31,872 bases of DNA from a virus (lineage: Duplodnaviria > Heunggongvirae > Uroviricota > Caudoviricetes), in IMG/VR virus record IMGVR_UViG_3300045988_180666; one strand, given 5' to 3'. The notes beneath the pieces were generated by a model that did no database searches, was not told where the DNA came from, and saw only the letters and a list, made by a program, of their open reading frames with translations. Shown here piece by piece: positions 11,397 through 30,280 of this stretch (position 1 is its first letter; each line of letters begins with the position of its first letter). The translations under genes and the position numbers were made by a program.

Positions 11397-12458
11397 TTAG
11401 TTGAACGTATCGTCGAAGGAGTCGTCGAAGATGCGACCGCCCGTATTGTCGATGTTTTTGAACACGACATTCTGGACTCGCTGGGCATATTGGTAGCTGA
11501 AGGTGAACTCAGCCATGTCATCCAGCTCGTTGGTGCGCTCGCTCTTGGAGTCGGTGAAGGTAATCTCTTTGTCCTGTGTGTAGTCACGGAACAGATAGAT
11601 CTCATCGGAGCGCAGCAGGTCTTCGGCGAAGTGTGCCATGGACGGAGGAATAACACCTGTGTCGCCCTCGAAGGTGCGGGTCTCTTTGACGGAGTAGTTG
11701 ATCTTTTTGCCGCTGATGACGGCGCTCTTGCGCTCGAAGGTAGGTGCAATCTTCTTTTTGCCTAGGCAATAGAAGATCTCTTGGCACCCGAAGGAGTTGG
11801 TGAAGAGGAGCACCGGGTCGGCGACCGCCTCGGTATGGTCTATCTGGAAGTCTTGCACTCGCTTGCCCACGGTGACGGTGTAGGCGAAGAGGTCGCCACG
11901 GTCGGCATCGTAGTAACGGTCGGGCGAGACATCGAAGGTGGTGATGTTATTCACCGTATGGGTAGGGGTGGCATCGGCGGCGATATTGCCCTCCACGACC
12001 TTGCCGTCTTTGTAATATCGGGCTGTGACGGCGGCAGTGGTTCTGTCGGCACCTGCGGCATGGAGATATTCACGGTGTCCGAGCTGTGTGAGCTTGGCAC
12101 CATCGAGGAGGGTGAGGAAGTATTGGTCGAGGAACGACTGGCACGACATGTTGATGTCAACGGTGGCGTAGTAGGCGGTGAACTCGCACGACCAGTTGGC
12201 GACATCGCTCTCGCCATTGTGCTCGACAATCTTGATGGCGCACTTGGCGACCACGGTCGTGCGCACGGCATCGGAGATGAGCGTGCCGAGGTCGTAGATG
12301 GTGATGGTGCCAGCCACTGGGTAGTAAGTCTCGCTGAGCAGCTCTTCGCCCTCGCAGGTGATGGTAACGGTAGCGCGCTCGCCACCTATCTTGAAGGAGA
12401 AGGAGTCGAGCGCACTGGTGAACAATGGCGAAGATGGTTGGTTGGTAACTGTAATCAT
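11397..12458 (-). CDS. phage structural protein, function unknown
   Basis: 353 aa with ATG at 12458. First gene downstream of the -7 box at 12482-12489. Composition is beta-rich. Confidence 0.6.
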   Translation of the reverse strand: MITVTNQPSSPLFTSALDSFSFKIGGERATVTITCEGEELLSETYYPVAGTITIYDLGTLISDAVRTTVVAKCAIKIVEHNGESDVANWSCEFTAYYATVDINMSCQSFLDQYFLTLLDGAKLTQLGHREYLHAAGADRTTAAVTARYYKDGKVVEGNIAADATPTHTVNNITTFDVSPDRYYDADRGDLFAYTVTVGKRVQDFQIDHTEAVADPVLLFTNSFGCQEIFYCLGKKKIAPTFERKSAVISGKKINYSVKETRTFEGDTGVIPPSMAHFAEDLLRSDEIYLFRDYTQDKEITFTDSKSERTNELDDMAEFTFSYQYAQRVQNVVFKNIDNTGGRIFDDSFDDTFN

Positions 12459-12481
12459 ATCAATGTCTCATTAAAACGATG

Positions 12482-12489
12482 CAAAGATA
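12482..12489 (-). promoter_or_regulatory. -7 box TATCTTTG for the 11397..12458 / portal / tail operon
   Basis: GCAAAGATA lies 24 nt upstream of the ATG at 12458, directly downstream of terminator 12503-12541. Confidence 0.5.
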
Positions 12490-12502
12490 GGAAGGAAGGG
12501 GA

Positions 12503-12541
12503 GAAAATAAAAATACCTGATTGTCATCACGACAACCAGGT
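12503..12541 (-). terminator. intrinsic terminator after 12636..12947
   Basis: Minus-strand RNA: ACCUGGUUGUC-GUGAU-GACAAUCAGGU (11 bp, one G-U pair) followed by AUUUUUAUUUUC. Confidence 0.75.
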
Positions 12542-12635
12542 ATCGACTCATGGAGCGGACCACGCCTTGTTAAGCCTAAGGCTCCATTCCGAGACTGTTT
12601 TATGTTGTAAATGAAAAAAAATGTGCTTGTCTTGC

Positions 12636-12947
12636 TTACTCTTCGGGCTGTGCGCAGTTGATTATCCAGACGAGTCTGCCACCCTCGACAGACTTCATCT
12701 TGAAGCCGTGCTCGACCATGTACTCGGTGATGACGGGGATGGGAGCGACGACCATGCCGCTGATGGCCTCTTGTATATCTTTGGAGGATAGGAAGTCAAC
12801 GCATTGGCTGTATGGGTCATCGCCCGGTGTGTCGCCCTCGAAGTAAGCGTCGAGCGCCATGCGCACATAGTCGATCTTGCTCTCTTGCTCTGACTGTTGC
12901 TGCTCGTCGCTGTTAGCACTGAAGCCCATCACACGCATACGTTTCAT
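12636..12947 (-). CDS. hypothetical small acidic protein
   Basis: 103 aa with ATG at 12947. ATGA-type 4-nt overlap with the upstream gene, and followed by a strong intrinsic terminator. Confidence 0.55.
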   Translation of the reverse strand: MKRMRVMGFSANSDEQQQSEQESKIDYVRMALDAYFEGDTPGDDPYSQCVDFLSSKDIQEAISGMVVAPIPVITEYMVEHGFKMKSVEGGRLVWIINCAQPEE

Positions 12948-13213
12948 GCCTCACCTCCTTTCGTCTCCAGTGCTATGTTGATGGTCTTGAAGAGCTTGCT
13001 CATGTGGTCGAAGTTGTTGAGCATGAGTAGCACTTTGTCGGCACCGCCGAGGTCTTCGACACAGTTGGTCACCACCTCGTCTGAGATAAGCACCTTTTTG
13101 ACTTGCTCTAGGTACTCGATGAAGTAGCTGAGCTGGTTGACATCCATCATTTCTACGAGCGCATTCCAGACCTCTGCTGTCATGTGCATATTTGTTGCGT
13201 TGTTTGTGTTCAT
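12944..13213 (-). CDS. hypothetical small protein
   Basis: 89 aa with ATG at 13213. 4-nt overlaps on both sides indicate translational coupling. Confidence 0.55.
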   Translation of the reverse strand: MNTNNATNMHMTAEVWNALVEMMDVNQLSYFIEYLEQVKKVLISDEVVTNCVEDLGGADKVLLMLNNFDHMSKLFKTINIALETKGGEA

Positions 13214-13461
13214 GCTACGACTCCTCCCATCAGATAACCACCAAAGAAAACCACTGCCATGAAGGCTGCGAAGCCTAGTGTGGCCTTGACCACCTCGCCG
13301 TAGGTCACGCTCTCGTCGCAGAGTGCGGTGAAGGTCTCGCTCTCGGTCTTGGCGAGCTTCTTGATTTCACACTTGAGGGTATTGATACCCTCCTCTACGC
13401 TGATGCCTGCAGGTCTCACCTGCGCATCACTAATTAAAATTGAATTCTGCATAATTGCCAT
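13210..13461 (-). CDS. small tail-anchored membrane protein (holin-like or exclusion-type, unproven)
   Basis: The track ORF starts at 13575. The first 38 codons are AT-rich and contain a 14-bp inverted-repeat pair, so the ATG at 13461 (MAIMQNSILISDAQ...) or at 13452 is preferred. The C-terminus ATLGFAAFMAVVFFGGYLMGGVVA is a clear hydrophobic helix. Confidence 0.5.
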   Translation of the reverse strand: MAIMQNSILISDAQVRPAGISVEEGINTLKCEIKKLAKTESETFTALCDESVTYGEVVKATLGFAAFMAVVFFGGYLMGGVVA

Positions 13462-13709
13462 CTTATAACCATTATAGACCGACCTTGATGTATAAATACA
13501 ATGGTGGCGGTCACATTCACCGTTGGTTATAAGATGGTAGCTTTCCCAGCGAAGGGCAAGTATCTTACGGATCATGCAACCGCCATATTGAAAAGACCTT
13601 TTTCCCGCTGCCGGGAAAATGATACTTTATAGGCATAAAAAAAGCCCACGGCGTGAAGCCTAGGCGAAACAGTCGCCATCGCTGAGTAGATTACTACTAT
13701 CTTATAACC
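13458..13709. repeat. three copies of ATCTTATAACC (two extend to the 14-mer CCATCTTATAACCA in inverted orientation)
   Basis: 13460-13470 (+), 13525-13535 (inverted) and 13699-13709 (+, at the predicted start site of the orphan promoter). Confidence 0.6.
13637..13665 (-). terminator. intrinsic terminator about 45-70 nt downstream of the orphan promoter
   Basis: Minus-strand GCCUAGGC-UUCAC-GCCGUGGGC (8 bp with one bulge) followed by U7. Confidence 0.6.
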
Positions 13710-13714
13710 GATGG

Positions 13715-13746
13715 CAAAAGTACGAAGAATAATTGGAACCGCCAAA
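13715..13746 (-). promoter_or_regulatory. full consensus promoter (-33 TTTG, 20-nt spacer, -7 TACTTTTG) with no ORF directly behind it
   Basis: Plus-strand CAAAAGTA at 13715-13722 and CAAA at 13743-13746. Confidence 0.55.
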
Positions 13747-13816
13747 AAAAAAGCGAGAAATTTTGAAATAAATGACTTTTTTATGTTTTAGAGCATAAAA
13801 CAAGGGGGTGAGGAAC

Positions 13817-13848
13817 GAAAAAGCCCCGGATGCTCACGCACCCGAGGC
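13817..13848 (-). terminator. intrinsic terminator of the AT-rich three-gene operon
   Basis: Minus-strand GCCUCGGG-UGCGUGAGCA-UCCGGGGC followed by UUUUUC, beginning 7 nt after the stop at 13855. Confidence 0.65.
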
Positions 13849-13854
13849 TGACAG

Positions 13855-14247
13855 TTATTTTTGGAAATAAACTTTTAAAGGGATTGAATTCTCCACATTG
13901 CCAATTTTGAAAGAGAACTGATAGTTGCCCTCTGCAGGGAACTGGAGGTCGGAGAACTCAAAGATGAAGTTGCTGAAGAGAAACTCATCTGAAGGGTGTG
14001 GCTCAATCTTGGAATTGATGGGCTGGCCAAGAATCATCTTGCCAGTGCTCATCTCTGTAACCTCTGCCGAGAACTCTTGCTGAAGTTTGCTTTCCTCGCT
14101 GTTCATCTTAACTCTCGCTACCATGAAGAGGTTGCTCTTAGGCAGCGGTGCTTTTCTTACCACATAGTGGTCAAAAGTGCCCACGATGGTAAGTTTGCCG
14201 TCATTATCTTGTGCAAAGTCACACAATGCAAGAATATCTATGTTCAT
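13855..14247 (-). CDS. hypothetical protein, third gene of AT-rich ORFan operon
   Basis: 130 aa (MNIDILALCDFAQDNDGKLTIVGTFDHYVV...), predicted all-beta by composition. ATG at 14247 overlaps the upstream stop by 4 nt. A terminator hairpin begins 7 nt after the stop. Confidence 0.65.
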   Translation of the reverse strand: MNIDILALCDFAQDNDGKLTIVGTFDHYVVRKAPLPKSNLFMVARVKMNSEESKLQQEFSAEVTEMSTGKMILGQPINSKIEPHPSDEFLFSNFIFEFSDLQFPAEGNYQFSFKIGNVENSIPLKVYFQK

Positions 14248-14684
14248 TTTATATGTCCTTTAATGTTAGACTCGATAGCCGAGTGTTTGAAAAGTTTTTT
14301 ATAATTGTCGAATGAATATTTGAGTTTGCTCACCGTGCGCTTGTTTGTGCTCACTAGGTTGGCTCCATGTCTGCCAGAGATGCCTTCCTTGGTATTGAAC
14401 TTCAGAGAATTTCTTTTGGAGTCAACCCAAAGCCTGATGGCATCGCCTTGTATCTTGTCACCCACATTGCCATGGACGTTGAGATCTTCTCGTATTTTCT
14501 TGTCCTCTTCGTTGAGCTCAAGAGCTTCGGTGATTTCTACGGAACTATTTCGGTCTAGTTCGTATAATGTCATCTTTTTGCCCGTGATAGGTTCCTCTTT
14601 GAGTCCCTTCCACTCAGCCCTTCTGGCAATGACATCAGCTTTTTTGCCCTCTATGATTTCACCTTCTTTGATATATATAGCCAT
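14244..14684 (-). CDS. hypothetical Lys-rich protein, second gene of AT-rich ORFan operon
   Basis: 146 aa. Its start overlaps the upstream stop in a TAATG arrangement (shared nt 14684). No motif recognised. Confidence 0.65.
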   Translation of the reverse strand: MAIYIKEGEIIEGKKADVIARRAEWKGLKEEPITGKKMTLYELDRNSSVEITEALELNEEDKKIREDLNVHGNVGDKIQGDAIRLWVDSKRNSLKFNTKEGISGRHGANLVSTNKRTVSKLKYSFDNYKKLFKHSAIESNIKGHIK

Positions 14685-15112
14685 TATTGGATACTTTTTT
14701 GCATTGATTTTTCACTGAAAGAGAATACCTCAGCCATATCATCAGGCGAGGTGATGCTCATGAGCGATGGGCTGACCTCAAGAGCCACCTCAATGTCTTC
14801 AATGGAAGCATCTTTATCTTGTTTGATGATGTACTTATCCTCATGCTCTTCAATCTCTTTATCAAACTCTTCTTCGGTAATATTGCCGTCAAGCATTTCG
14901 CAATATAGTTTGAAGTAGTTGCGCTCACGTGTGCGGTTGTTAACGGCACGAGTCATCAACTCCTTGAGTCTGTCGGCAGTACTGATGTTGAAAAAGTTAG
15001 CCTTATTGGTAACACCAGCGAATGCAACCTTGCCAGTACCTTTGTCTTGTATAGCCACAACAGGGCTGCCATCAGTTTGGTATGTTGTATATATAGTCGT
15101 TGTATTGCTCAT
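14684..15112 (-). CDS. hypothetical protein with acidic C-terminal half, first gene of AT-rich ORFan operon
   Basis: 142 aa with ATG at 15112, about 30 nt downstream of a full consensus promoter (15143-15174). Acidic stretch EEEFDKEIEEHEDKYIIKQDKDASIEDIEVALE. Confidence 0.65.
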   Translation of the reverse strand: MSNTTTIYTTYQTDGSPVVAIQDKGTGKVAFAGVTNKANFFNISTADRLKELMTRAVNNRTRERNYFKLYCEMLDGNITEEEFDKEIEEHEDKYIIKQDKDASIEDIEVALEVSPSLMSITSPDDMAEVFSFSEKSMQKSIQ

Positions 15113-15142
15113 AATTCACATCCTGTTTATATTAACACGGTG

Positions 15143-15174
15143 CAAAGATACGGATATTTTTTGTAAATCGCAAA
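15143..15174 (-). promoter_or_regulatory. full consensus promoter of the AT-rich three-gene operon
   Basis: Plus-strand CAAAGATA at 15143-15150 and CAAA at 15171-15174, an exact 20-nt spacer. The ATG at 15112 follows. Confidence 0.65.
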
Positions 15175-15299
15175 TTTAATGATAAATTTAACAACAAAAA
15201 TTGCAATAAAGATTGGAAAATGGTATATAAAAAATGCTCGACCGCTTTTTGGCTCTTGCCAGACGCTTTCGCCGCAGGCGAAAATTTTTGGAAAATGAG

Positions 15300-15321
15300 G
15301 GGGAAGGTTTTAGCCTTCCCC
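15300..15321. terminator. GC-rich hairpin after radC (possible bidirectional terminator)
   Basis: GGGGAAGG-ttttag-CCTTCCCC, 20 nt after the radC stop. U-rich tracts follow on both strands but are not immediately adjacent. Confidence 0.5.
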
Positions 15322-15340
15322 TTACCTTATTATATATATA

Positions 15341-16024
15341 TTATAGCTTTCCTTTGTCGTGGTAGCTGTAGAAGCCATCCTCAGCCAAGATGATATGGTC
15401 CATCAAGAAAAGTCTCATCACCTCGCACGCCTTGGCTATCTTCTGCGTGAGCATATCGTCCGCCTTGCTCGGCTGCGTGCTGTTCGATGGGTGGTTGTGT
15501 GCCACGGCGATGATGGTTGCATTGTTGAGCACGGCTTCTTTCATTATCAGTCGAACGTCCACCGCTGTCTCGGTGATGCCTCCCTCGCTGAGCTTGGTGC
15601 ACTTTATCAGCCTAAAGTTTTGGTTCATCAGCACTACCCAAAAGCCCTCTGTCTCATTGCAGCCTATCATTGGGCGAAGATAGTTGTAGAGTGCCAGGCT
15701 GCTGCCTAGGTCGGTGTTTCTCGCTACCTTTTCCATTTGGTAGCGTCTGCCTAGCTCGATGGCTGCCTGTAGGGCTATCGCCTTGCAGTCTCCAATTCCT
15801 GGTACCACTTCCAGGTCTTCTATTCTCGCCTTGCCGATGTTGCGAAGCGAGTTGCCCATGATGTTATAAATCTGTCGTGCCTGCTCTTGGCTGTCCTTGG
15901 TACCTGCCCCTCTGTTGATTACCAAAGAAATCAAGTCAACGTTGGTAAGGGTGTCGAAACCTTGGTTATAGGCTCTGTACTGCGGTCTCTCCTCCATACA
16001 AAGATTGTTATAATTTTGTCTCAT
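15341..16024 (-). CDS. radC: RadC-family JAB/MPN domain protein
   Basis: 227 aa. The N-terminal part is HhH-like (LEVVPGIGDCKAIALQAAIELGRR). The C-terminal JAMM motif is intact: E in ETEGFWVVLMN, then AHNHPSNSTQPSKADDMLT (HxHx7SxxD). Confidence 0.85.
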   Translation of the reverse strand: MRQNYNNLCMEERPQYRAYNQGFDTLTNVDLISLVINRGAGTKDSQEQARQIYNIMGNSLRNIGKARIEDLEVVPGIGDCKAIALQAAIELGRRYQMEKVARNTDLGSSLALYNYLRPMIGCNETEGFWVVLMNQNFRLIKCTKLSEGGITETAVDVRLIMKEAVLNNATIIAVAHNHPSNSTQPSKADDMLTQKIAKACEVMRLFLMDHIILAEDGFYSYHDKGKL

Positions 16025-16039
16025 ATCTTTTGTTATTTG

Positions 16040-16564
16040 TTAGTTATACATTCTCTTTGTTCTCGCTAGGAACATCGCTCCCATCACTTGTGCGCCACAT
16101 TCGGCTAGCTCGTTGGCGAACTCTCGGGCGGTCGCTCCGCTCGTCACCACGTCGTCGAAGATGATGACTTTCTTTCCGCTGAAGTACTCTCTATCGAGTG
16201 CCACTCTGTAGTCGAAGCTCTCACACACTCTGTCTGTGCTGAAGTGCTTGGCTGTGCGCTCTCCATAGATGGAAATGTGCTCGTTTCCGTTCTGTACCTT
16301 TGCGCCTTGGCTCACCTTTTGGGCGAAGCGAGAAAAGCGCTTGGTGTACTTCTTTGAGTTGGCTGCTGGAGCGCAAACCATCACGAAGTCGCTGGCTTTG
16401 TCGCCATAGGTGTTGACGAAAGAGCTGACCACCATATCGGCAGCTGCGTCTGTCGCCCACTGCTTTCCATCCTTGAAGGCAAAGATGAAGTTTCTCACTT
16501 GCTCTGCTTGTGCTGAGCGGTCGAAACGCTTGGAGCTGTACTCGTAATAATTGAAAGTTTTCAT
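16040..16564 (-). CDS. ComF-like phosphoribosyltransferase (PRTase) domain protein
   Basis: 174 aa. Canonical PRPP-binding loop KKVIIFDDVVTSGATAREFANELAECGA. The upstream segment VCAPAANSKKYTKRFSRFAQKVS resembles the ComF-type R.F.Q region. No N-terminal Cys4 zinc finger is present. Only 15 nt separate it from radC. Confidence 0.8.
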   Translation of the reverse strand: MKTFNYYEYSSKRFDRSAQAEQVRNFIFAFKDGKQWATDAAADMVVSSFVNTYGDKASDFVMVCAPAANSKKYTKRFSRFAQKVSQGAKVQNGNEHISIYGERTAKHFSTDRVCESFDYRVALDREYFSGKKVIIFDDVVTSGATAREFANELAECGAQVMGAMFLARTKRMYN

Positions 16565-25197: not shown

Positions 25198-25217
25198 ATA
25201 GCTATGCAATTTTCGTG

Positions 25218-25225
25218 CAAAGATA
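25218..25225 (-). promoter_or_regulatory. -7 box TATCTTTG, candidate late/head operon promoter
   Basis: GCAAAGATA lies 21 nt upstream of the ATG at 25197. Confidence 0.55.
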
Positions 25226-25311
25226 CAAAGAAAATTTGAAATAACTAACGATAATCGGTAAAAACTAACTTTTATCAGTAAATTTGGTGTGATATAATTT
25301 CGTCCGAAAAG

Positions 25312-25600
25312 TTTGTATTTTTGTATCGTACAAACAAGGCTCTGTAACTAGCTGATAATCAATACTATTTTTGTGATACAATTTTCTGATACAGAAATTG
25401 TAACTCTTTAGCTTTTGTAACTTGGGGTTTTGTCGAGGTCGAAGACCTGTAGGAGAAGGGGCTTGTTACAAACTTGAAAAACTTTGTAACAGAGTTGTAA
25501 CGCAACTTTGTAAACATCGGCAAGGCGGCTTAACTCCATCTTTTATAATTATTTACCTCTTTTGCCAACATTATGTTACAGAGTTACAAAGGATTTGTAT
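25312..25600. repeat. iteron-like array of (T)TTGTAAC / GTTACAA(A) motifs
   Basis: TGTAAC-core copies were read at about 25343, 25398, 25415, 25484 and 25495, with a variant at 25508. Inverted copies lie at about 25465, 25575 and 25583. A TTTGTA-tcg-TACAAA palindrome lies at 25320-25334. Confidence 0.6.
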
Positions 25601-25951: not shown

Positions 25952-28906
25952 CTAGAAAGGTTTATCACTATCTTTATCTACCTTGCTCCAGTCAATGGTA
26001 GATTGATATTCACCCCCAGCTGCAGGGACATCAGCCTTGGCAGCTTGTTTATCCTCTTTTTTATCATCACTCTTCTTGCTTCGGAGATAGATCATCTCGA
26101 CAGGGCTGCCGTCTGGGTTAGCTGGATCGCGTCTGATGATGCGGTGCTGGCTGTTGCAGAGATCAGCTGGGTTCAGCTCTTGGATGTATGGACACAGCTC
26201 GACGAAGGCTCTGAGCTTTTTGGTGAAGCTCTGTGTGGTCGCCTTGTTGATGCCTGAGAACTGCTTGAAGTCATTGAACGCACGCTCTCTCACGATAAAT
26301 GTATCGAGTCGCTCGCTCTCTTCTGAGAAGTAGGATGCAGCCCAGTCTTCGAAGTTGACACCCATGTCGGCCTTGAACTTGCGCTTGATGATGTTATCCA
26401 TCGGTGGCATGATCTTGATAGGTTCGCCAGCCAAGGAGAGATAGAAACGACAGCACTGCAGGAAAAAGTTGATGTCAGCATTCCACTCATCCTCAGTGTA
26501 TGTCTTTGAGAAGAGATCTTCGTCGAAGTCATCACGGATGCTTCGGGTCTCTTGGTAATCATTCTCCTCTGTGCGCTGATGGTAATAGTCGGAGAACACC
26601 ATATAGAGCAGTCTCGCCTCTGAGGAAGGGTCGAAGTCTGCCGGCACGTAGTTGGTGGTGAAGGCAATCTTCGGGCTATCCTCGAAAGGAATTGTGAAGC
26701 TCTGGTTGTTCTTTGGGTTGACTGTCATATCTGAAGTAATGTTATCGTAAAATAAACCTGTGTTGAGATAGCGGTCACAGTCATCGAGGAGCAGCATCTG
26801 GGTGTGCTGTGTCACCTGATCGAAGACGTGTGGGTTGTCCATCAGCTTAGGGTTGCGTCCGGAAAGCTTGACTGTTTTCATCAGCAGTGAAAGCGTCTTG
26901 AAGAAGAAACTCTTACCGGAACGGCCGTTGCACTCGTTGTTTTCACCAATCTTGTTGTCCATCGCCATCGGAGCCCAAGCCCTGGATGGTGCCTTGTAAT
27001 GATGGAGCATGTAGCCGAAGGTGAAAATCTTGTTTATCAAGTTCTGCTTTTGCTCTTGTATCTCGTTGTCGGCAAGCCCTTCGCCAGCGATGTCGAAGAG
27101 GTGTGCCTTGTGGTATGCCTCTTTCTCCTCGATGCTCTTGTCCTCAAAAGCATACTCTAGCTCTTTGCGCCAGTAGGTGCGAGAGGCGTTGATGAGATAG
27201 CCGAAGAAGTGGGACTTCACGTTCTTGACCTCGATGTCGAACTTCGGCCTGCCATCCTCGTCGATGGTTCGGGTGATGGAGAACATGTCATCCAACTTCT
27301 TGAAGTTGTGGTTGATGACATTCTCTTGCCAAACATAGTTTTTGAGCGAGCTGCCCTCACGCTGGTACTCGTTTAGTCCATCTTTGGTGACCTCGACGCT
27401 GACACGAGGGAAGAAGAACAACTGCGAGTGGTTGGTGTAGCTGGTGAAGTCTAGCGTAATCTCTTGGAGCGAGTCGAGCGCCGATGCCGACAGCTTTGGC
27501 GTGTTGAGCACCAAGTTAAGGATGTCACGCTTCTCAGCTCTCTCGATGACCCATTGGCGGCAGAACTCACGGATGTCTCTCGTGGTGATGAGCTTGACGA
27601 TGTTGCCCGTGATGCGAACATATTTGGTGATGGTCGAGTTGTCATCGTGCAAGGTATAGAAACCATTGAGACGAAGAAAATTGTAGAGGCACGCCGTGTC
27701 GATGTAGTGGTCCCAGGTGTTAGCCTTTTTGTTGAGCTTGCTCACCCAAAATCGGGCTGGCATCGCCAGTGTCATGAGGTTGCGGAAGTCTTTGCGAGTA
27801 TTGCGCAGCTCCATCCAGTCTCGCAGGTCTTTGCGCCCCTTGCCACGGTTGTCGTGGTAGGTGCGAAGCCAAGAAGGCAACCATATCGTATGGATGTCGA
27901 TGAAGCGCAGGGCAAGCTCTGTGCCCTTGGCGATGCCCGTCTCGTCGATGTCGGGTATATTGTAGAGCACCTCGACATACTTCATAATCTCTCGGTACTC
28001 CTCGTCGCTGAGCTTGTAGGTCTCGGAGTTGAACCATAACGGGTTGTAGCCCATGGAACGGCAGCAGAGACTGTCACGCTCGCCACTGCAGATGAAAGCC
28101 TCGGGAAGTTTCTTCTCCTTGTAAGGCTTGGACTCGTCTGTGTTGGTCTTGTTGTACTCAGCCTCTTCACGGCGGTTGAACTCGTGATAGGCAGCCTTCA
28201 GCTCAGCTAGGCCATTGATGTATTGCTTAGGCTTGATGCCGTCTGGGGTGTAAGAGAATCGCCACTGCTTTTGGTAGTTGAGAGGCTCATATATCTTGTA
28301 GAACTTAACCTCAGGCTTGTCGCCTTCAGCTGGGCGAACCAAGCACTCACGCATAAAGATAGGGTAGTGCTCGTTGCTGTGCTTAATCTTGACCTTGCGG
28401 TCTTTGACGTATCCTATCCACTTGGCGGAATGCCAGTTGAGCGCATCGACGTGCTCTTGCTTGACGTTTGGACCCAGTACCTTCAGTTCATCTTCGGTGA
28501 ACTTCTCGTTCAGCTCGAAAGGTCTGGTACCATCTTTCTCGTTGATGGTGGCATCACGCTCTGTGAACGTAGGCTTGTTGACCTCTTTTTTGAGTTCATC
28601 GCTAACGTTGTATTCGGAAGCCAGTCGCAGGATAGCATCAGGAAAGCGGTCGATGCACTTCTCTCTCATGTAGAGGTCGATAGGTGACTCGGCAGATCCG
28701 TCGCCGCCGAAGTCTGTCACTCGCCAGCAGTCTTTGAACTTTTTGAGACTGCAGGAAGGTGTTTTCTCATTGCGGATGGCAAAGTGCTTTTTAGGCGTGC
28801 CAGTCGTGCAATATTTCTGGATGCATTCTTTTGCGTCCGGGTATAGTGAGATGATGATGTCGAGACCATCATCTGTAGCTTGATAAATTTGTTCTGCTTT
28901 GATCAT
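25952..28906 (-). CDS. DNA primase (Toprim) fused to SF3 (P4/D5-like) helicase
   Basis: The track start at 28936 is TTG inside the promoter, so the ATG at 28906 (MIKAEQIYQATDDG...) is preferred. The Toprim-like segment is FICSGERDSLCC...LYNIPDIDETGIAKG. Walker A is ECNGRSGKSFFFK and Walker B is QMLLLDDCD. Confidence 0.8.
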   Translation of the reverse strand: MIKAEQIYQATDDGLDIIISLYPDAKECIQKYCTTGTPKKHFAIRNEKTPSCSLKKFKDCWRVTDFGGDGSAESPIDLYMREKCIDRFPDAILRLASEYNVSDELKKEVNKPTFTERDATINEKDGTRPFELNEKFTEDELKVLGPNVKQEHVDALNWHSAKWIGYVKDRKVKIKHSNEHYPIFMRECLVRPAEGDKPEVKFYKIYEPLNYQKQWRFSYTPDGIKPKQYINGLAELKAAYHEFNRREEAEYNKTNTDESKPYKEKKLPEAFICSGERDSLCCRSMGYNPLWFNSETYKLSDEEYREIMKYVEVLYNIPDIDETGIAKGTELALRFIDIHTIWLPSWLRTYHDNRGKGRKDLRDWMELRNTRKDFRNLMTLAMPARFWVSKLNKKANTWDHYIDTACLYNFLRLNGFYTLHDDNSTITKYVRITGNIVKLITTRDIREFCRQWVIERAEKRDILNLVLNTPKLSASALDSLQEITLDFTSYTNHSQLFFFPRVSVEVTKDGLNEYQREGSSLKNYVWQENVINHNFKKLDDMFSITRTIDEDGRPKFDIEVKNVKSHFFGYLINASRTYWRKELEYAFEDKSIEEKEAYHKAHLFDIAGEGLADNEIQEQKQNLINKIFTFGYMLHHYKAPSRAWAPMAMDNKIGENNECNGRSGKSFFFKTLSLLMKTVKLSGRNPKLMDNPHVFDQVTQHTQMLLLDDCDRYLNTGLFYDNITSDMTVNPKNNQSFTIPFEDSPKIAFTTNYVPADFDPSSEARLLYMVFSDYYHQRTEENDYQETRSIRDDFDEDLFSKTYTEDEWNADINFFLQCCRFYLSLAGEPIKIMPPMDNIIKRKFKADMGVNFEDWAASYFSEESERLDTFIVRERAFNDFKQFSGINKATTQSFTKKLRAFVELCPYIQELNPADLCNSQHRIIRRDPANPDGSPVEMIYLRSKKSDDKKEDKQAAKADVPAAGGEYQSTIDWSKVDKDSDKPF

Positions 28907-28933
28907 AATTCTTTTCCATTGTAAATTTGCTTG

Positions 28934-28964
28934 CAAAATTATTGCAAAGCGAGTTCAAAACAAA
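28934..28964 (-). promoter_or_regulatory. promoter of the primase-helicase gene (-33 TTTG, 19-nt spacer, -7 TAATTTTG)
   Basis: Plus-strand CAAAATTA at 28934-28941 and CAAA at 28961-28964. The ATG at 28906 is downstream. Confidence 0.6.
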
Positions 28965-29576: not shown

Positions 29577-29788
29577 GATCCATCATTGATAATTTGCTCG
29601 ATGACCTCTCTGTCGATGGCACGCCAAGTATTGGTGCGCATCTTATTGTAGATGGTGTTCTGGCTCATCTCTAGCTTTAGCTGCAGTGTGGCCATGAACT
29701 TGCTTCTCTTTTTGCGTGGTATCTCATTATACCATGCGAGGATGATATTTTCATCATCATTTTTTTGTTTTTTTCTTGCATATTCCAA
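29564..29788 (-). CDS. small HTH-like early protein (Cro/excisionase-like position)
   Basis: 74 aa, first ORF after the leftward early promoter. The segment RSKFMATLQLKLEMSQNTIYNKMRTNTW looks HTH-like. The only start at the 5' end is TTG, so the start is uncertain. Confidence 0.45.
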   Translation of the reverse strand: MEYARKKQKNDDENIILAWYNEIPRKKRSKFMATLQLKLEMSQNTIYNKMRTNTWRAIDREVIEQIINDGSWEK

Positions 29789-29798
29789 TATTTATTAT

Positions 29799-29806
29799 TA
29801 ATTTTG
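29799..29806 (+). promoter_or_regulatory. -7 box TAATTTTG, candidate rightward promoter for the repressor gene
   Basis: The plus-strand TAATTTTG is separated by 3 nt from the leftward -7 box. The repressor ATG is at 29903. Confidence 0.4.
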
Positions 29807-29809
29807 TTG

Positions 29810-29817
29810 CAAAGTTA
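29810..29817 (-). promoter_or_regulatory. -7 box TAACTTTG, leftward early promoter
   Basis: Plus-strand GCAAAGTTA lies 22 nt upstream of the first early ORF. Confidence 0.5.
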
Positions 29818-29902
29818 GTAATAAAAATCGGAAAATACTAACGAAAGTAAGTAAAAACACCTACGATAATAGGTTAAATATTATTAATTAAATTAGGTAA
29901 TT

Positions 29903-30280
29903 ATGTTTAATGGTCAGATAATCAGAAAGTTAATGTCGGATGCTGGCTTAACTAAAAAAGAGTTTGAAAGACGTATGTTCGGTAGTAAATCGACCGACCT
30001 CAACCATTTGGAAAAAGCGAAGAATCTTCGCAGTGACACTCTCGAACGTCTGCGTGATGTGTTGAAGTGCTCTATGGATGACTTCTTTACAGCACCCTCA
30101 TGGGCTGAGAACGGAAAGGGGACAGTCGTAGGCTCTAACAATGTGCTGTCAACAGTAGCCATCGGCAACGAAGTGATGGAAGCCCAATATCTCAAGGAGT
30201 TGCTCTTGGAGAAGGACAAACGCATCAGCACTTTGGAAAATTATATCAAGCTTCTGGAGACTAACTTAAATAAGGACTAA
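29903..30280 (+). CDS. XRE-family HTH regulator, putative prophage repressor
   Basis: 125 aa, the only phage gene on the plus strand and divergent from the early operon. The N-terminal HTH is IIRKLMSDAGLTKKEFERRMFGSKSTDLNHLEKAKNLRSDTLERLRDVLKCSMDDFF. The C-terminal part is a coiled coil (QYLKELLLEKDKRISTLENYIKLLE). Confidence 0.75.
   Translation: MFNGQIIRKLMSDAGLTKKEFERRMFGSKSTDLNHLEKAKNLRSDTLERLRDVLKCSMDDFFTAPSWAENGKGTVVGSNNVLSTVAIGNEVMEAQYLKELLLEKDKRISTLENYIKLLETNLNKD

What the first reader, a model, noticed from the sequence alone, without database searches (positions are those of the whole stretch)
13817..15174. Self-contained AT-rich three-gene ORFan operon (moron) inside the phage
Three ORFs of 142, 146 and 130 aa are translationally coupled: the stop and start overlap as TAATG at 14684 and as ATGA at 14244-14247. 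They are preceded by a textbook Bacteroides promoter (TTTG-N20-TATCTTTG, 15143-15174) and followed within 7 nt by an intrinsic terminator. Sampled lines in this block are about 35% GC, against about 57% in the flanking virion genes, which argues for separate acquisition. The first protein has a strongly acidic C-terminal half, the second is Lys-rich, and the third looks like a small all-beta domain. None carries a motif I recognise. An autonomous promoter-plus-terminator cassette in a prophage is the classic signature of lysogen-expressed defence, exclusion or anti-defence cargo.
Basis: partly seen in the sequence, partly recalled or inferred. Interest (0 to 1): 0.7.

Follow-up and report, generated by a model that had tools for sequence, protein, structure and literature searches.

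The report
Mobile three-gene cassette in gut phage
A small, self-contained set of three genes of unknown function sits in a swap-prone spot of a very common Segatella (Prevotella) copri gut phage, and the same trio recurs in unrelated Bacteroidales phages and chromosomes, which makes it a good but unproven candidate for a new phage-bacterium conflict system.

Summary
The anatomy is real. Three tightly packed minus-strand genes (A 142 aa, B 146 aa, C 130 aa) lie behind a Bacteroidetes-type promoter (TTTG-N20-TATCTTTG) and in front of a strong terminator.

- GC is 42%, against about 50-56% in the flanking genes, not 35% against 57%.
- The genes are not ORFans. C is Pfam DUF6941, and A and B have hundreds of homologs.

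In about 155 fetched Bacteroidales loci (many near-identical or re-fetched contigs; about 24 distinct contexts) the order A-B-C is strictly kept. The three genes diverge together, and dN/dS is about 0.05. The flanks differ completely: several phage positions, sites next to integrases, and plain housekeeping chromosome.

Among 50 close relatives of this phage, 28 carry the trio and 22 do not. The break points enclose promoter, genes and terminator. The same hotspot holds other cargo in relatives, including a ShosT-like PRTase with RadC and a DUF4065/Panacea gene.

Function is unresolved. A and B give confident models with no informative fold match. C looks Ig-like. Nothing matches known defence families.

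My best guess, at moderate confidence, is a three-component conflict module of the toxin-antitoxin, abortive-infection or exclusion type.

The parts
15300..15321 (-). Terminator of the upstream RadC gene, which insulates the cassette from upstream transcription
   Evidence: Stem of 8 pairs (6 G-C) followed by CTCATTTT. It lies 20 nt after the RadC stop at 15341.
15143..15174 (-). Bacteroidetes-type promoter: -33 TTTG (15174-15171), 20-nt spacer, -7 box TATCTTTG (15150-15143)
   Evidence: Read directly and matched by pattern. A TAnnTTTG box lies within -120..+60 of the called start of A in 17 of 23 distinct loci, where 11% is expected (binomial P 3e-12). Activity was not tested.
14684..15112 (-). 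Gene A, 142 aa, acidic (pI 4.58). It has a variable N-terminal three-strand region and a long helix carrying the invariant motif A-x-N-N-R-T-R-E-R-N-Y-F (residues 56-67). A SHOCT-like segment G-x-I-T-E-E-E-F-D-K-E follows, then three short C-terminal helices that resemble a helix-turn-helix.
   Evidence: alignment; AlphaFold2 model, pLDDT 85.9; 390 clusters; weak SHOCT and helix-turn-helix hits; dN/dS about 0.06.
14244..14684 (-). Gene B, 146 aa, basic (pI 9.4), mostly beta. Its ATG shares one base with the stop codon of A (TAATG). Invariant residues are N46, G75, E100, G101, H106 and G107. Nearly invariant are E12, R21, Y41, D44, R45, H71, D76 and D81.
13855..14247 (-). Gene C, 130 aa, a DUF6941 protein that is probably an Ig-like beta-sandwich. 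Its start overlaps the stop of B (ATGA).
   Evidence: Pfam PF22091, E 6e-21. The family profile gives consistent weak hits to Ig V/I-set domains, for example LRIG1 at E 0.0035 and PD-L1 at 0.02. It is the fastest-evolving of the three, with mean pairwise identity 0.33.
13814..13849 (-). Intrinsic terminator of the cassette
   Evidence: 12-pair stem (8 G-C), 4-nt loop, then TTTTCGTT. RNAfold gives -22.7 kcal/mol.
13746..15233 (.). The unit exchanged between related phages. Sequence similarity to relatives that lack the trio stops at 13746-13823 on one side and at 15116-15233 on the other.
   Evidence: blastn of window 12401-16100 against L193, L205, L177, L168, L173 and L169.

Best explanation
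The block is one insulated transcription unit encoding three cytoplasmic proteins that are inherited and exchanged together. It is accessory cargo (a moron) in a variable hotspot between the terminase gene and the next structural genes of a very common Segatella copri phage. The same cassette moves among Bacteroidales phages, integrative elements and chromosomes. All of that is shown.

The following is inferred. The three proteins most likely act together as a conflict module of the toxin-antitoxin, abortive-infection or exclusion type, expressed from its own promoter.
- A is the acidic helical protein with an invariant Asn/Arg-rich helix and a helix-turn-helix-like tail. It would act as regulator or neutraliser, and would also contact a conserved cellular or nucleic-acid target.
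- B is the basic beta-rich protein with conserved His, Asp and Glu residues. It would be the effector.
- C is the fast-evolving Ig-like DUF6941 protein. It would be the binding or specificity subunit.

The confidence figure refers to this functional reading. The architecture itself I hold at more than 0.9.
For: Shown:
- Gene anatomy, promoter and both terminators.
- Strict A-B-C synteny with small junction gaps or overlaps in the ~155 fetched loci, which reduce to about 24 distinct contexts, down to 33% identity. Hosts span Segatella, Prevotella, Bacteroides, Parabacteroides, Muribaculaceae, Odoribacter and Symbiothrix.
- Co-divergence of the three genes: Mantel r 0.77-0.88, p <= 5e-4.
- Strong purifying selection.
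- The flanks are unrelated between contexts. They include phage terminase, protease and integrase, but also PAP2-TrmO-TatC-[trio]-prfC-RmlD, a hybrid two-component regulator and a GH35 galactosidase.
- The trio has lower GC than its flanks in all 23 other loci examined.
- All four combinations of the trio and the neighbouring PRTase-RadC pair occur among close relatives: 23, 5, 9 and 13 loci.
- The exchange boundaries enclose promoter and terminator.

Supporting the conflict reading:
- The same hotspot carries other conflict-type cargo. The PRTase matches ShosT at 1.6e-9 and PsyrT at 9e-9.
- A relative without the trio carries a DUF4065/Panacea antitoxin-domain gene with an overlapping 123-aa ORF (PMC8832971).
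- An acidic-first, basic-second overlapping gene pair is the usual layout of type II toxin-antitoxin systems (layout from general knowledge).
- None of the three proteins has a hydrophobic segment of transmembrane strength: the 19-residue Kyte-Doolittle maximum is 0.85 or less, a rough check only, with no dedicated signal-peptide or TM predictor run.
- Isolated low-GC three-gene islets in housekeeping regions are typical of toxin-antitoxin and small defence systems (inference).
- Homologs of A occur alone in other phages. That would fit phage-borne antidotes, but other readings are possible.
Against: - No homology to any toxin, antitoxin or defence family in Pfam, NCBIfam, PHROGs or PADLOC.
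- No fold match for A or B in the PDB, and none for B in BFVD.
- The neighbours are not generally defence islands. The only recurrent conflict-type neighbour is the PRTase, in 3 of 125 flanking proteins.
- The motif in A is invariant even in copies that lack B and C. A must therefore do something independent of B and C, which is unusual for a mere antitoxin.
- Antitoxins normally evolve faster than A does.
- DUF6941 occurs alone next to dnaK in Ferruginibacter, so C need not be conflict-related.
- Expression in the lysogen, toxicity and phage resistance are all untested.
Confidence: 0.4

Rival explanations
1. Anti-defence or host-takeover cargo that benefits the phage. A would be an acidic mimic or inhibitor of a host immune or nucleic-acid-binding protein, with B and C as helpers.
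For: - Most copies are in phages.
- A has a strongly acidic C-terminal half.
- A-like genes occur alone in other phages, within tail-gene regions.
- One A-like gene lies next to an ORF that I read, from memory of the GxFxPxHxGH motif and not by any search, as an NMN-adenylyltransferase-like gene.
- In L012 the trio lies beside a DNA methylase or PAPS reductase and a giant polyvalent protein.
Against: - Complete trios sit in phage-free housekeeping regions that are conserved between two Prevotella genomes. Others lie next to a two-component regulator and a GH35 gene. A purely phage-serving function would not be maintained there under dN/dS of about 0.05.
- The cassette has its own promoter and terminator inside a late-gene region rather than lying among early genes.
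Confidence: 0.2
2. A cellular fitness module unrelated to phage conflict, for example a small regulatory, stress or chaperone-type complex that phages pick up as an auxiliary gene set.
For: - Chromosomal copies lie among housekeeping genes.
- DUF6941 occurs as a single chromosomal gene in Ferruginibacter and relatives, once next to dnaK.
- A has a helix-turn-helix-like tail and a SHOCT-like segment.
Against: - The distribution is patchy and there is presence/absence polymorphism among near-identical phages.
- GC is lower than the flanks everywhere.
- No neighbour is conserved across contexts.
- Together these point to a selfish or conflict-driven element rather than a housekeeping function.
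Confidence: 0.2
3. A core phage function, such as a late-gene regulator, an assembly factor or a virion component, that merely looks like cargo.
For: - The trio has the same orientation as the morphogenesis genes and lies among them.
- A has a possible DNA-binding tail.
- In L009 the trio directly precedes the protease and capsid genes.
Against: - It is absent from 22 of 50 close relatives and from all 13 more distant relatives that share the same terminase family.
- It is present in phage-free chromosome.
- It has no PHROG structural hit.
- It is bounded by terminators.
Confidence: 0.03

Closest known systems
Phage morons and accessory-gene hotspots, as in lambdoid phages and the P2/P4 hotspots that carry defence systems
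   Same: - An independent promoter-genes-terminator unit inside the late region.
- Deviant base composition.
- Present or absent among near-identical phages.
- Alternative cargo at the same site.
   Different: - The content is a fixed three-gene set with no known family for two of its members.
- The same set also occurs as isolated islets in bacterial chromosomes.
Type II toxin-antitoxin systems and tripartite variants such as toxin-antitoxin-chaperone (HigBA-SecB) systems
   Same: - Small overlapping genes, with an acidic protein first and a basic protein second.
- Its own promoter.
- High mobility and patchy distribution, on both prophages and chromosomes.
   Different: - No homology to any toxin, antitoxin or SecB family.
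- A is highly conserved, with a motif kept even where B and C are missing.
- The third protein is an Ig-like DUF6941, not a SecB-type chaperone.
- Toxicity is untested.
Pfam DUF6941 (PF22091)
   Same: C is a full-length member (residues 5-126 on profile positions 2-124 of 125).
   Different: The family has no known function. In Ferruginibacter and relatives it is a stand-alone gene, whereas here it is always the third gene after A and B.
ShosTA and PsyrTA PRTase-toxin defence systems (relevant to the neighbouring gene pair, not to the trio)
   Same: The neighbouring 174-aa PRTase matches ShosT and PsyrT in PADLOC and shares the hotspot with the trio.
   Different: It is paired with a RadC/JAB protein, not with ShosA or PsyrA. 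It varies independently of the trio and is therefore not part of it.

Membership tests
Pfam DUF6941 (protein C) | Score above the family's gathering threshold over the full domain | tested here: met
   75.5 bits against a cut-off of 27, E 6.3e-21, residues 5-126 on profile positions 2-124 of 125.
Phage moron (autonomous accessory cassette) | Own promoter and own terminator flanking the genes | tested here: met
   TTTG-N20-TATCTTTG and the terminators at 13849-13822 and 15321-15300. The motif is enriched across loci. This is shown at sequence level only.
Phage moron (autonomous accessory cassette) | Present in some and absent in other closely related phages, with break points around the unit | tested here: met
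   28 with and 22 without among 50 relatives with TerL at least 90% identical. Break points are at 13746-13823 and 15116-15233.
Phage moron (autonomous accessory cassette) | Base composition different from the host phage | tested here: met
   GC 0.424 against 0.505, and GC3 0.46-0.55 against 0.65-0.81. GC is lower than the flanks in all 23 other loci.
Phage moron (autonomous accessory cassette) | Transcribed in the lysogen while late genes are silent | not testable with these tools
   No transcriptome data are available here.
Type II toxin-antitoxin system | Adjacent small co-transcribed genes with overlapping stop and start | tested here: met
   TAATG and ATGA overlaps. Junction gaps or overlaps are small in all loci, though starts are called by longest ORF so overlap lengths are approximate.
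Type II toxin-antitoxin system | Homology of either partner to a known toxin or antitoxin family | tested here: not met
   No significant Pfam, NCBIfam, PHROG or PADLOC hit for A or B. No PDB hit by sequence profile.
Type II toxin-antitoxin system | Antitoxin with a DNA-binding domain | tested here: inconclusive
   The three short C-terminal helices of A carry a helix-turn-helix-like pattern. Only about 7 of 119 family members give weak hits, and these go to assorted helix-turn-helix families.
Type II toxin-antitoxin system | Toxicity of one partner, neutralised by the other | not testable with these tools
   Needs expression experiments.
Toxin-antitoxin-chaperone (TAC) systems | Third gene encodes a SecB-like chaperone | tested here: not met
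   C is DUF6941 with an Ig-like signal and no SecB match.
Known anti-phage defence systems (PADLOC-DB v2) | Match of at least one component to a system model | tested here: not met
   No families found for A, B or C at E <= 1.
SHOCT domain (segment of A) | Pfam match above threshold | tested here: inconclusive
   Weak hits only, all below the curated cut-offs: 10 members to SHOCT, 4 to SHOCT_2 and 4 to DUF1707, out of 119, with best E 6.8e-4.

The most novel reading that the evidence does not exclude
The trio is a previously undescribed three-component immunity or exclusion system of Bacteroidales. B would be an effector with a new fold, C an Ig-like specificity subunit, and A a regulator whose invariant Asn/Arg helix engages a conserved target. 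A highly prevalent Segatella copri phage would carry it to protect its lysogens, and phages that carry A alone would use it as an antidote.
Probability: 0.25. Interest if true: 0.75.

Novelty: new member of a known kind. Interest (0 to 1): 0.5.

Why it matters
Segatella copri is a dominant human gut species with few genetic tools and almost no characterised phage biology.

This cassette rides on a phage whose B protein, in exactly this sequence, is indexed in 6548 blocks of the public assembly collection. The same trio is spread across Bacteroidales.

If it is an immunity, exclusion or addiction module, three things would follow:
- It would add a new system type for the most abundant gut order.
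- It would give a function to DUF6941.
- It would add two protein families that have no detectable relatives.

Even without a function, the terminase-proximal hotspot with swappable promoter-terminator cassettes is a practical place to look for further Bacteroidales conflict genes.

Tried and rejected
- **B as a ribosomal protein S9 relative.** A weak full-length NCBIfam hit (E 0.087) suggested this.
- **A as a phycobilisome-linker relative.** The A profile hit the three repeats of Glr2806 (PDB 9k9w) through the motif ASNNRFIELNF. The summed E-value is 2e-4 but each repeat is only E 10-20. I treat this as a motif coincidence.
- **Cultured phages and plasmids.** There was no tblastn or megablast match for A, B, C or the region in INPHARED phages or PLSDB plasmids.
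- **Structured RNA.** Rfam gave only sub-threshold hits, one of them over the cassette terminator, and there are no tRNAs.
- **Literature.** No paper mentions DUF6941 or PF22091.
- **Fusions.** The longer A-family proteins were uninformative or looked like chimeric gene calls.

Full report
**1. What is in the sequence**

On the minus strand there are three ORFs: A at 15112..14684 (142 aa), B at 14684..14244 (146 aa) and C at 14247..13855 (130 aa).
- The stop of A and the start of B share TAATG. The stop of B and the start of C share ATGA.
- The string TTTG-N20-TATCTTTG lies at exactly 15174..15143, and its -7 box ends 30 nt before the ATG of A.
- Five nucleotides after the stop of C there is a 12-bp stem with 8 G-C pairs followed by TTTTCGTT, at 13849..13822.
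- A further terminator at 15321..15300 closes the upstream RadC gene. The unit is therefore insulated on both sides.
- The region has more terminator-like sites than shuffled sequence: 8 against 1.7.

The block is 42.4% GC, against 50.5% for the window and 50-56% for the neighbouring genes. The contrast is real at third codon positions, where GC3 is 0.46-0.55 in the trio and 0.65-0.81 in the neighbours.

A is acidic (pI 4.58, C-terminal half net -15). B is basic (pI 9.4, 21 Lys). C has pI 5.0. None of the three has a hydrophobic segment that looks like a membrane span by a rough Kyte-Doolittle scan; no dedicated signal-peptide predictor was run.

**2. The genes are not ORFans**

- C is a full-length member of Pfam DUF6941 (E 6e-21).
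- A and B have no Pfam, PHROG, NCBIfam or PADLOC family. They do have 210 and 75 clusters at 90% identity in the protein collection.
- A profile of A finds 390 clusters at 50% identity among 1.84 billion representatives. Nearly all are 120-190 aa long.
- The exact B sequence is indexed in 6548 blocks of the assembly collection. The samples are mostly human gut. It occurs on recurrent contigs of 61-65 kb and on contigs of 113-362 kb.
- A Segatella copri MAG carries an identical copy. Integration as a prophage is likely from the large contigs, but I did not verify it.
- All three genes are under strong purifying selection, with dN/dS 0.05-0.07.

**3. The trio is one unit**

I built HMMs of A, B and C and ran them on all ORFs of the fetched loci.
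- Every locus found through B has A-B-C in that order on one strand, with only small gaps or overlaps between genes. This holds down to 33% identity, excepting contigs cut short.
- These loci come from Segatella, Prevotella, Bacteroides, Parabacteroides, Muribaculaceae, Odoribacter, Symbiothrix and other Bacteroidia.
- Of the 86 loci found through A or C, 78 are A-B-C. Many of these are the same contigs re-fetched; about 24 contexts are truly distinct.
- The exceptions are two contigs cut at one end and six phage loci that carry an A homolog alone, within tail-gene regions.
- Pairwise identities of A, B and C across 23 distinct loci are strongly correlated (Mantel r 0.88, 0.85 and 0.77, p <= 5e-4). 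The three genes therefore travel together.
- B is the most conserved (mean identity 0.46), then A (0.40), then C (0.33).

**4. The unit is mobile cargo**

The flanks of the trio share nothing across contexts. The contexts are:
- after the terminase gene, as in this window;
- before the protease and capsid genes (L009);
- beside a DNA methylase or PAPS reductase and a polyvalent protein of about 5000-5800 aa (L012-L014);
- next to integrases;
- in phage-free chromosome. Examples are PAP2-TrmO-TatC-[trio]-prfC-RmlD-LysE-ROK in Prevotella sp. BV3P1 and a second Prevotellaceae genome, downstream of a hybrid two-component regulator, and downstream of a GH35 galactosidase.

In all 23 other loci the trio has lower GC than its flanks, by 1 to 13 points. 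A TAnnTTTG box lies near the start of A in 17 of 23 loci, where 11% is expected (P 3e-12). Many loci also have a hairpin with a T-run after C.

I then seeded a scan with the terminase of this phage. Among 50 close relatives that contain both anchor genes:
- 23 carry the trio together with the PRTase-RadC pair;
- 5 carry the trio alone;
- 9 carry PRTase-RadC alone;
- 13 carry neither.

None of the 13 more distant relatives has the trio.

Homology to relatives without the trio stops at 13746-13823 and resumes at 15116-15233. That interval is exactly the promoter, the three genes and the terminator.

One relative (L168) keeps a TATCTTTG promoter but has a different small gene and terminator behind it. 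Another (L182) carries a DUF4065/Panacea-domain gene with an overlapping 123-aa ORF at the same hotspot (the domain is described as an antitoxin domain in PMC8832971).

The 'moron' reading is therefore well supported. A core phage function is close to excluded.

**5. What the proteins look like**

Protein A (AlphaFold2, pLDDT 85.9):
- It has a small, variable three-strand N-terminal region.
- A helix spanning residues 42-74 holds A56-x-N-N-R-T-R-E-R-N-Y-F67. N58-F67 is invariant among 24 homologs; in the wider family only N59 is invariant, though the motif dominates the consensus.
- The motif is also kept (with small substitutions) in the copies that occur alone.
- A G-x-I-T-E-E-E-F-D-K-E segment gives weak SHOCT-type hits in 18 of 119 family members.
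- Three short terminal helices carry a helix-turn-helix-like pattern (DDMAEVFSFSEKSMQKSI). Only scattered weak Pfam hits support this.

Protein B (pLDDT 81.8, pTM 0.75):
- It is mostly beta, with one helix and a disordered tail.
- Across 25 diverse members, N46, G75, E100, G101, H106 and G107 are invariant. E12, R21, Y41, D44, R45, H71, D76 and D81 are nearly so.
- That pattern is compatible with a catalytic or metal-binding site. This is inference only.

Protein C: its profile gives consistent weak hits to Ig V/I-set domains through the G-x-Y-x F-strand motif, so it is probably an Ig-like sandwich. In Ferruginibacter and relatives, DUF6941 is a single chromosomal gene with no A or B beside it.

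**6. How it most likely works**

Shown: this is a co-inherited, self-transcribed, horizontally mobile set of three soluble proteins. It is dispensable for the phage and persists on its own in chromosomes.

Inferred: such behaviour is typical of addiction and immunity modules.
- The acidic-then-basic overlapping gene pair fits that picture.
- So does the company the trio keeps at the hotspot: a ShosT/PsyrT-like PRTase and a Panacea-domain gene.
- I therefore favour a three-component conflict module, with B as effector, A as regulator or neutraliser, and C as binding or specificity subunit.

Weaknesses of this reading:
- There is no homology to any known system.
- The neighbourhoods are not defence islands in general.
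- The invariant helix of A is kept without B and C, so A must have a target of its own.

The rivals are anti-defence cargo (weakened by the phage-free chromosomal copies), a non-conflict cellular module (weakened by patchiness and compositional foreignness), and a core phage function (nearly refuted).

**7. Comparison with what is known, and verdict**

As an architecture this is a classic moron in a phage cargo hotspot. As a gene set it is undescribed. DUF6941 has no literature, A and B have no family, and there is no match in cultured phage or plasmid records.

I file it as a new member of a known kind: phage-borne accessory conflict-type cassettes. It fails the membership tests for type II toxin-antitoxin systems, toxin-antitoxin-chaperone systems and the PADLOC defence systems wherever homology is required. 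Interest is moderate (0.5). It is a clean, widespread and experimentally tractable candidate, but one whose function is still a guess.

Noticed in passing
window 15341-16564 (- strand): A 174-aa phosphoribosyltransferase is followed by a 227-aa RadC/JAB protein with its own terminator. The PRTase matches PADLOC ShosT at 1.6e-9 and PsyrT at 9e-9, and is ComF-like in NCBIfam. The RadC protein matches Pfam RadC at 1e-35. Among close relatives the pair is present or absent independently of the trio, so it looks like a separate two-gene accessory module with an unusual partner for a ShosT-like toxin.
   Followed up: partly
L182 10145-11021 (same hotspot in a relative that lacks the trio): A 179-aa DUF4065/Panacea-domain protein is overlapped by a 123-aa ORF. 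The best tblastn hit is annotated DUF4065 at E 4e-24. This is the layout of a PanA-type toxin-antitoxin pair.
   Followed up: partly
L168 11990-12470; similar ORFs in L174, L177 and L188: A TATCTTTG promoter like the one in front of the trio drives a different small gene (MRMLKITRRR...GSLGGDNSLFNDYL...), followed by its own terminator. The hotspot therefore exchanges whole promoter-gene-terminator cassettes.
   Followed up: partly
L113 2986-3444; L118-L122 2842-3414: Homologs of A with the NNRTRERN(Y/F) motif occur alone, without B or C, inside tail-gene regions of other phages. In L113 the gene follows a 592-aa ORF that looks tape-measure-like by eye.
   Followed up: partly
L164 120-999: A 215-aa A-like protein with an N-terminal extension is overlapped at its end by an ORF starting METTKVGVFLARMQPIHNGHIEL. 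From memory this resembles an NMN/nicotinamide-nucleotide adenylyltransferase. The contig is only 1 kb long and the resemblance was not tested.
   Followed up: no
L015 and L016 4141-4533; L017 4232-4615: DUF6941 is a stand-alone chromosomal gene in Ferruginibacter and related genomes. In L015 and L016 it lies about 2.4 kb from dnaK, separated by two genes on the opposite strand, and there is no A or B homolog nearby.
   Followed up: partly
window 25952-28936 (- strand); L074 1966-5022; L076 1758-4775: A protein of about 1000 aa with no Pfam match lies 11 kb from the trio in the window. In L074 a related protein ends about 0.46 kb upstream of the trio with one short opposite-strand ORF between; in L076 it is about 0.6 kb upstream with two 98-aa ORFs between. 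Both are distant loci.
   Followed up: no
window 25201-25600 and 29601-30000: Two further low-GC patches (0.33 and 0.34) lie in a window that averages 0.505. They may be other foreign or regulatory segments.
   Followed up: no
protein A residues 56-67 compared with PDB 9k9w chain M2: The invariant motif of A resembles the repeated ASNNRFIELNF motif of phycobilisome-linker domains. The summed E-value is 2e-4 but each repeat alone is only E 10-20, so this is probably coincidence.
   Followed up: partly
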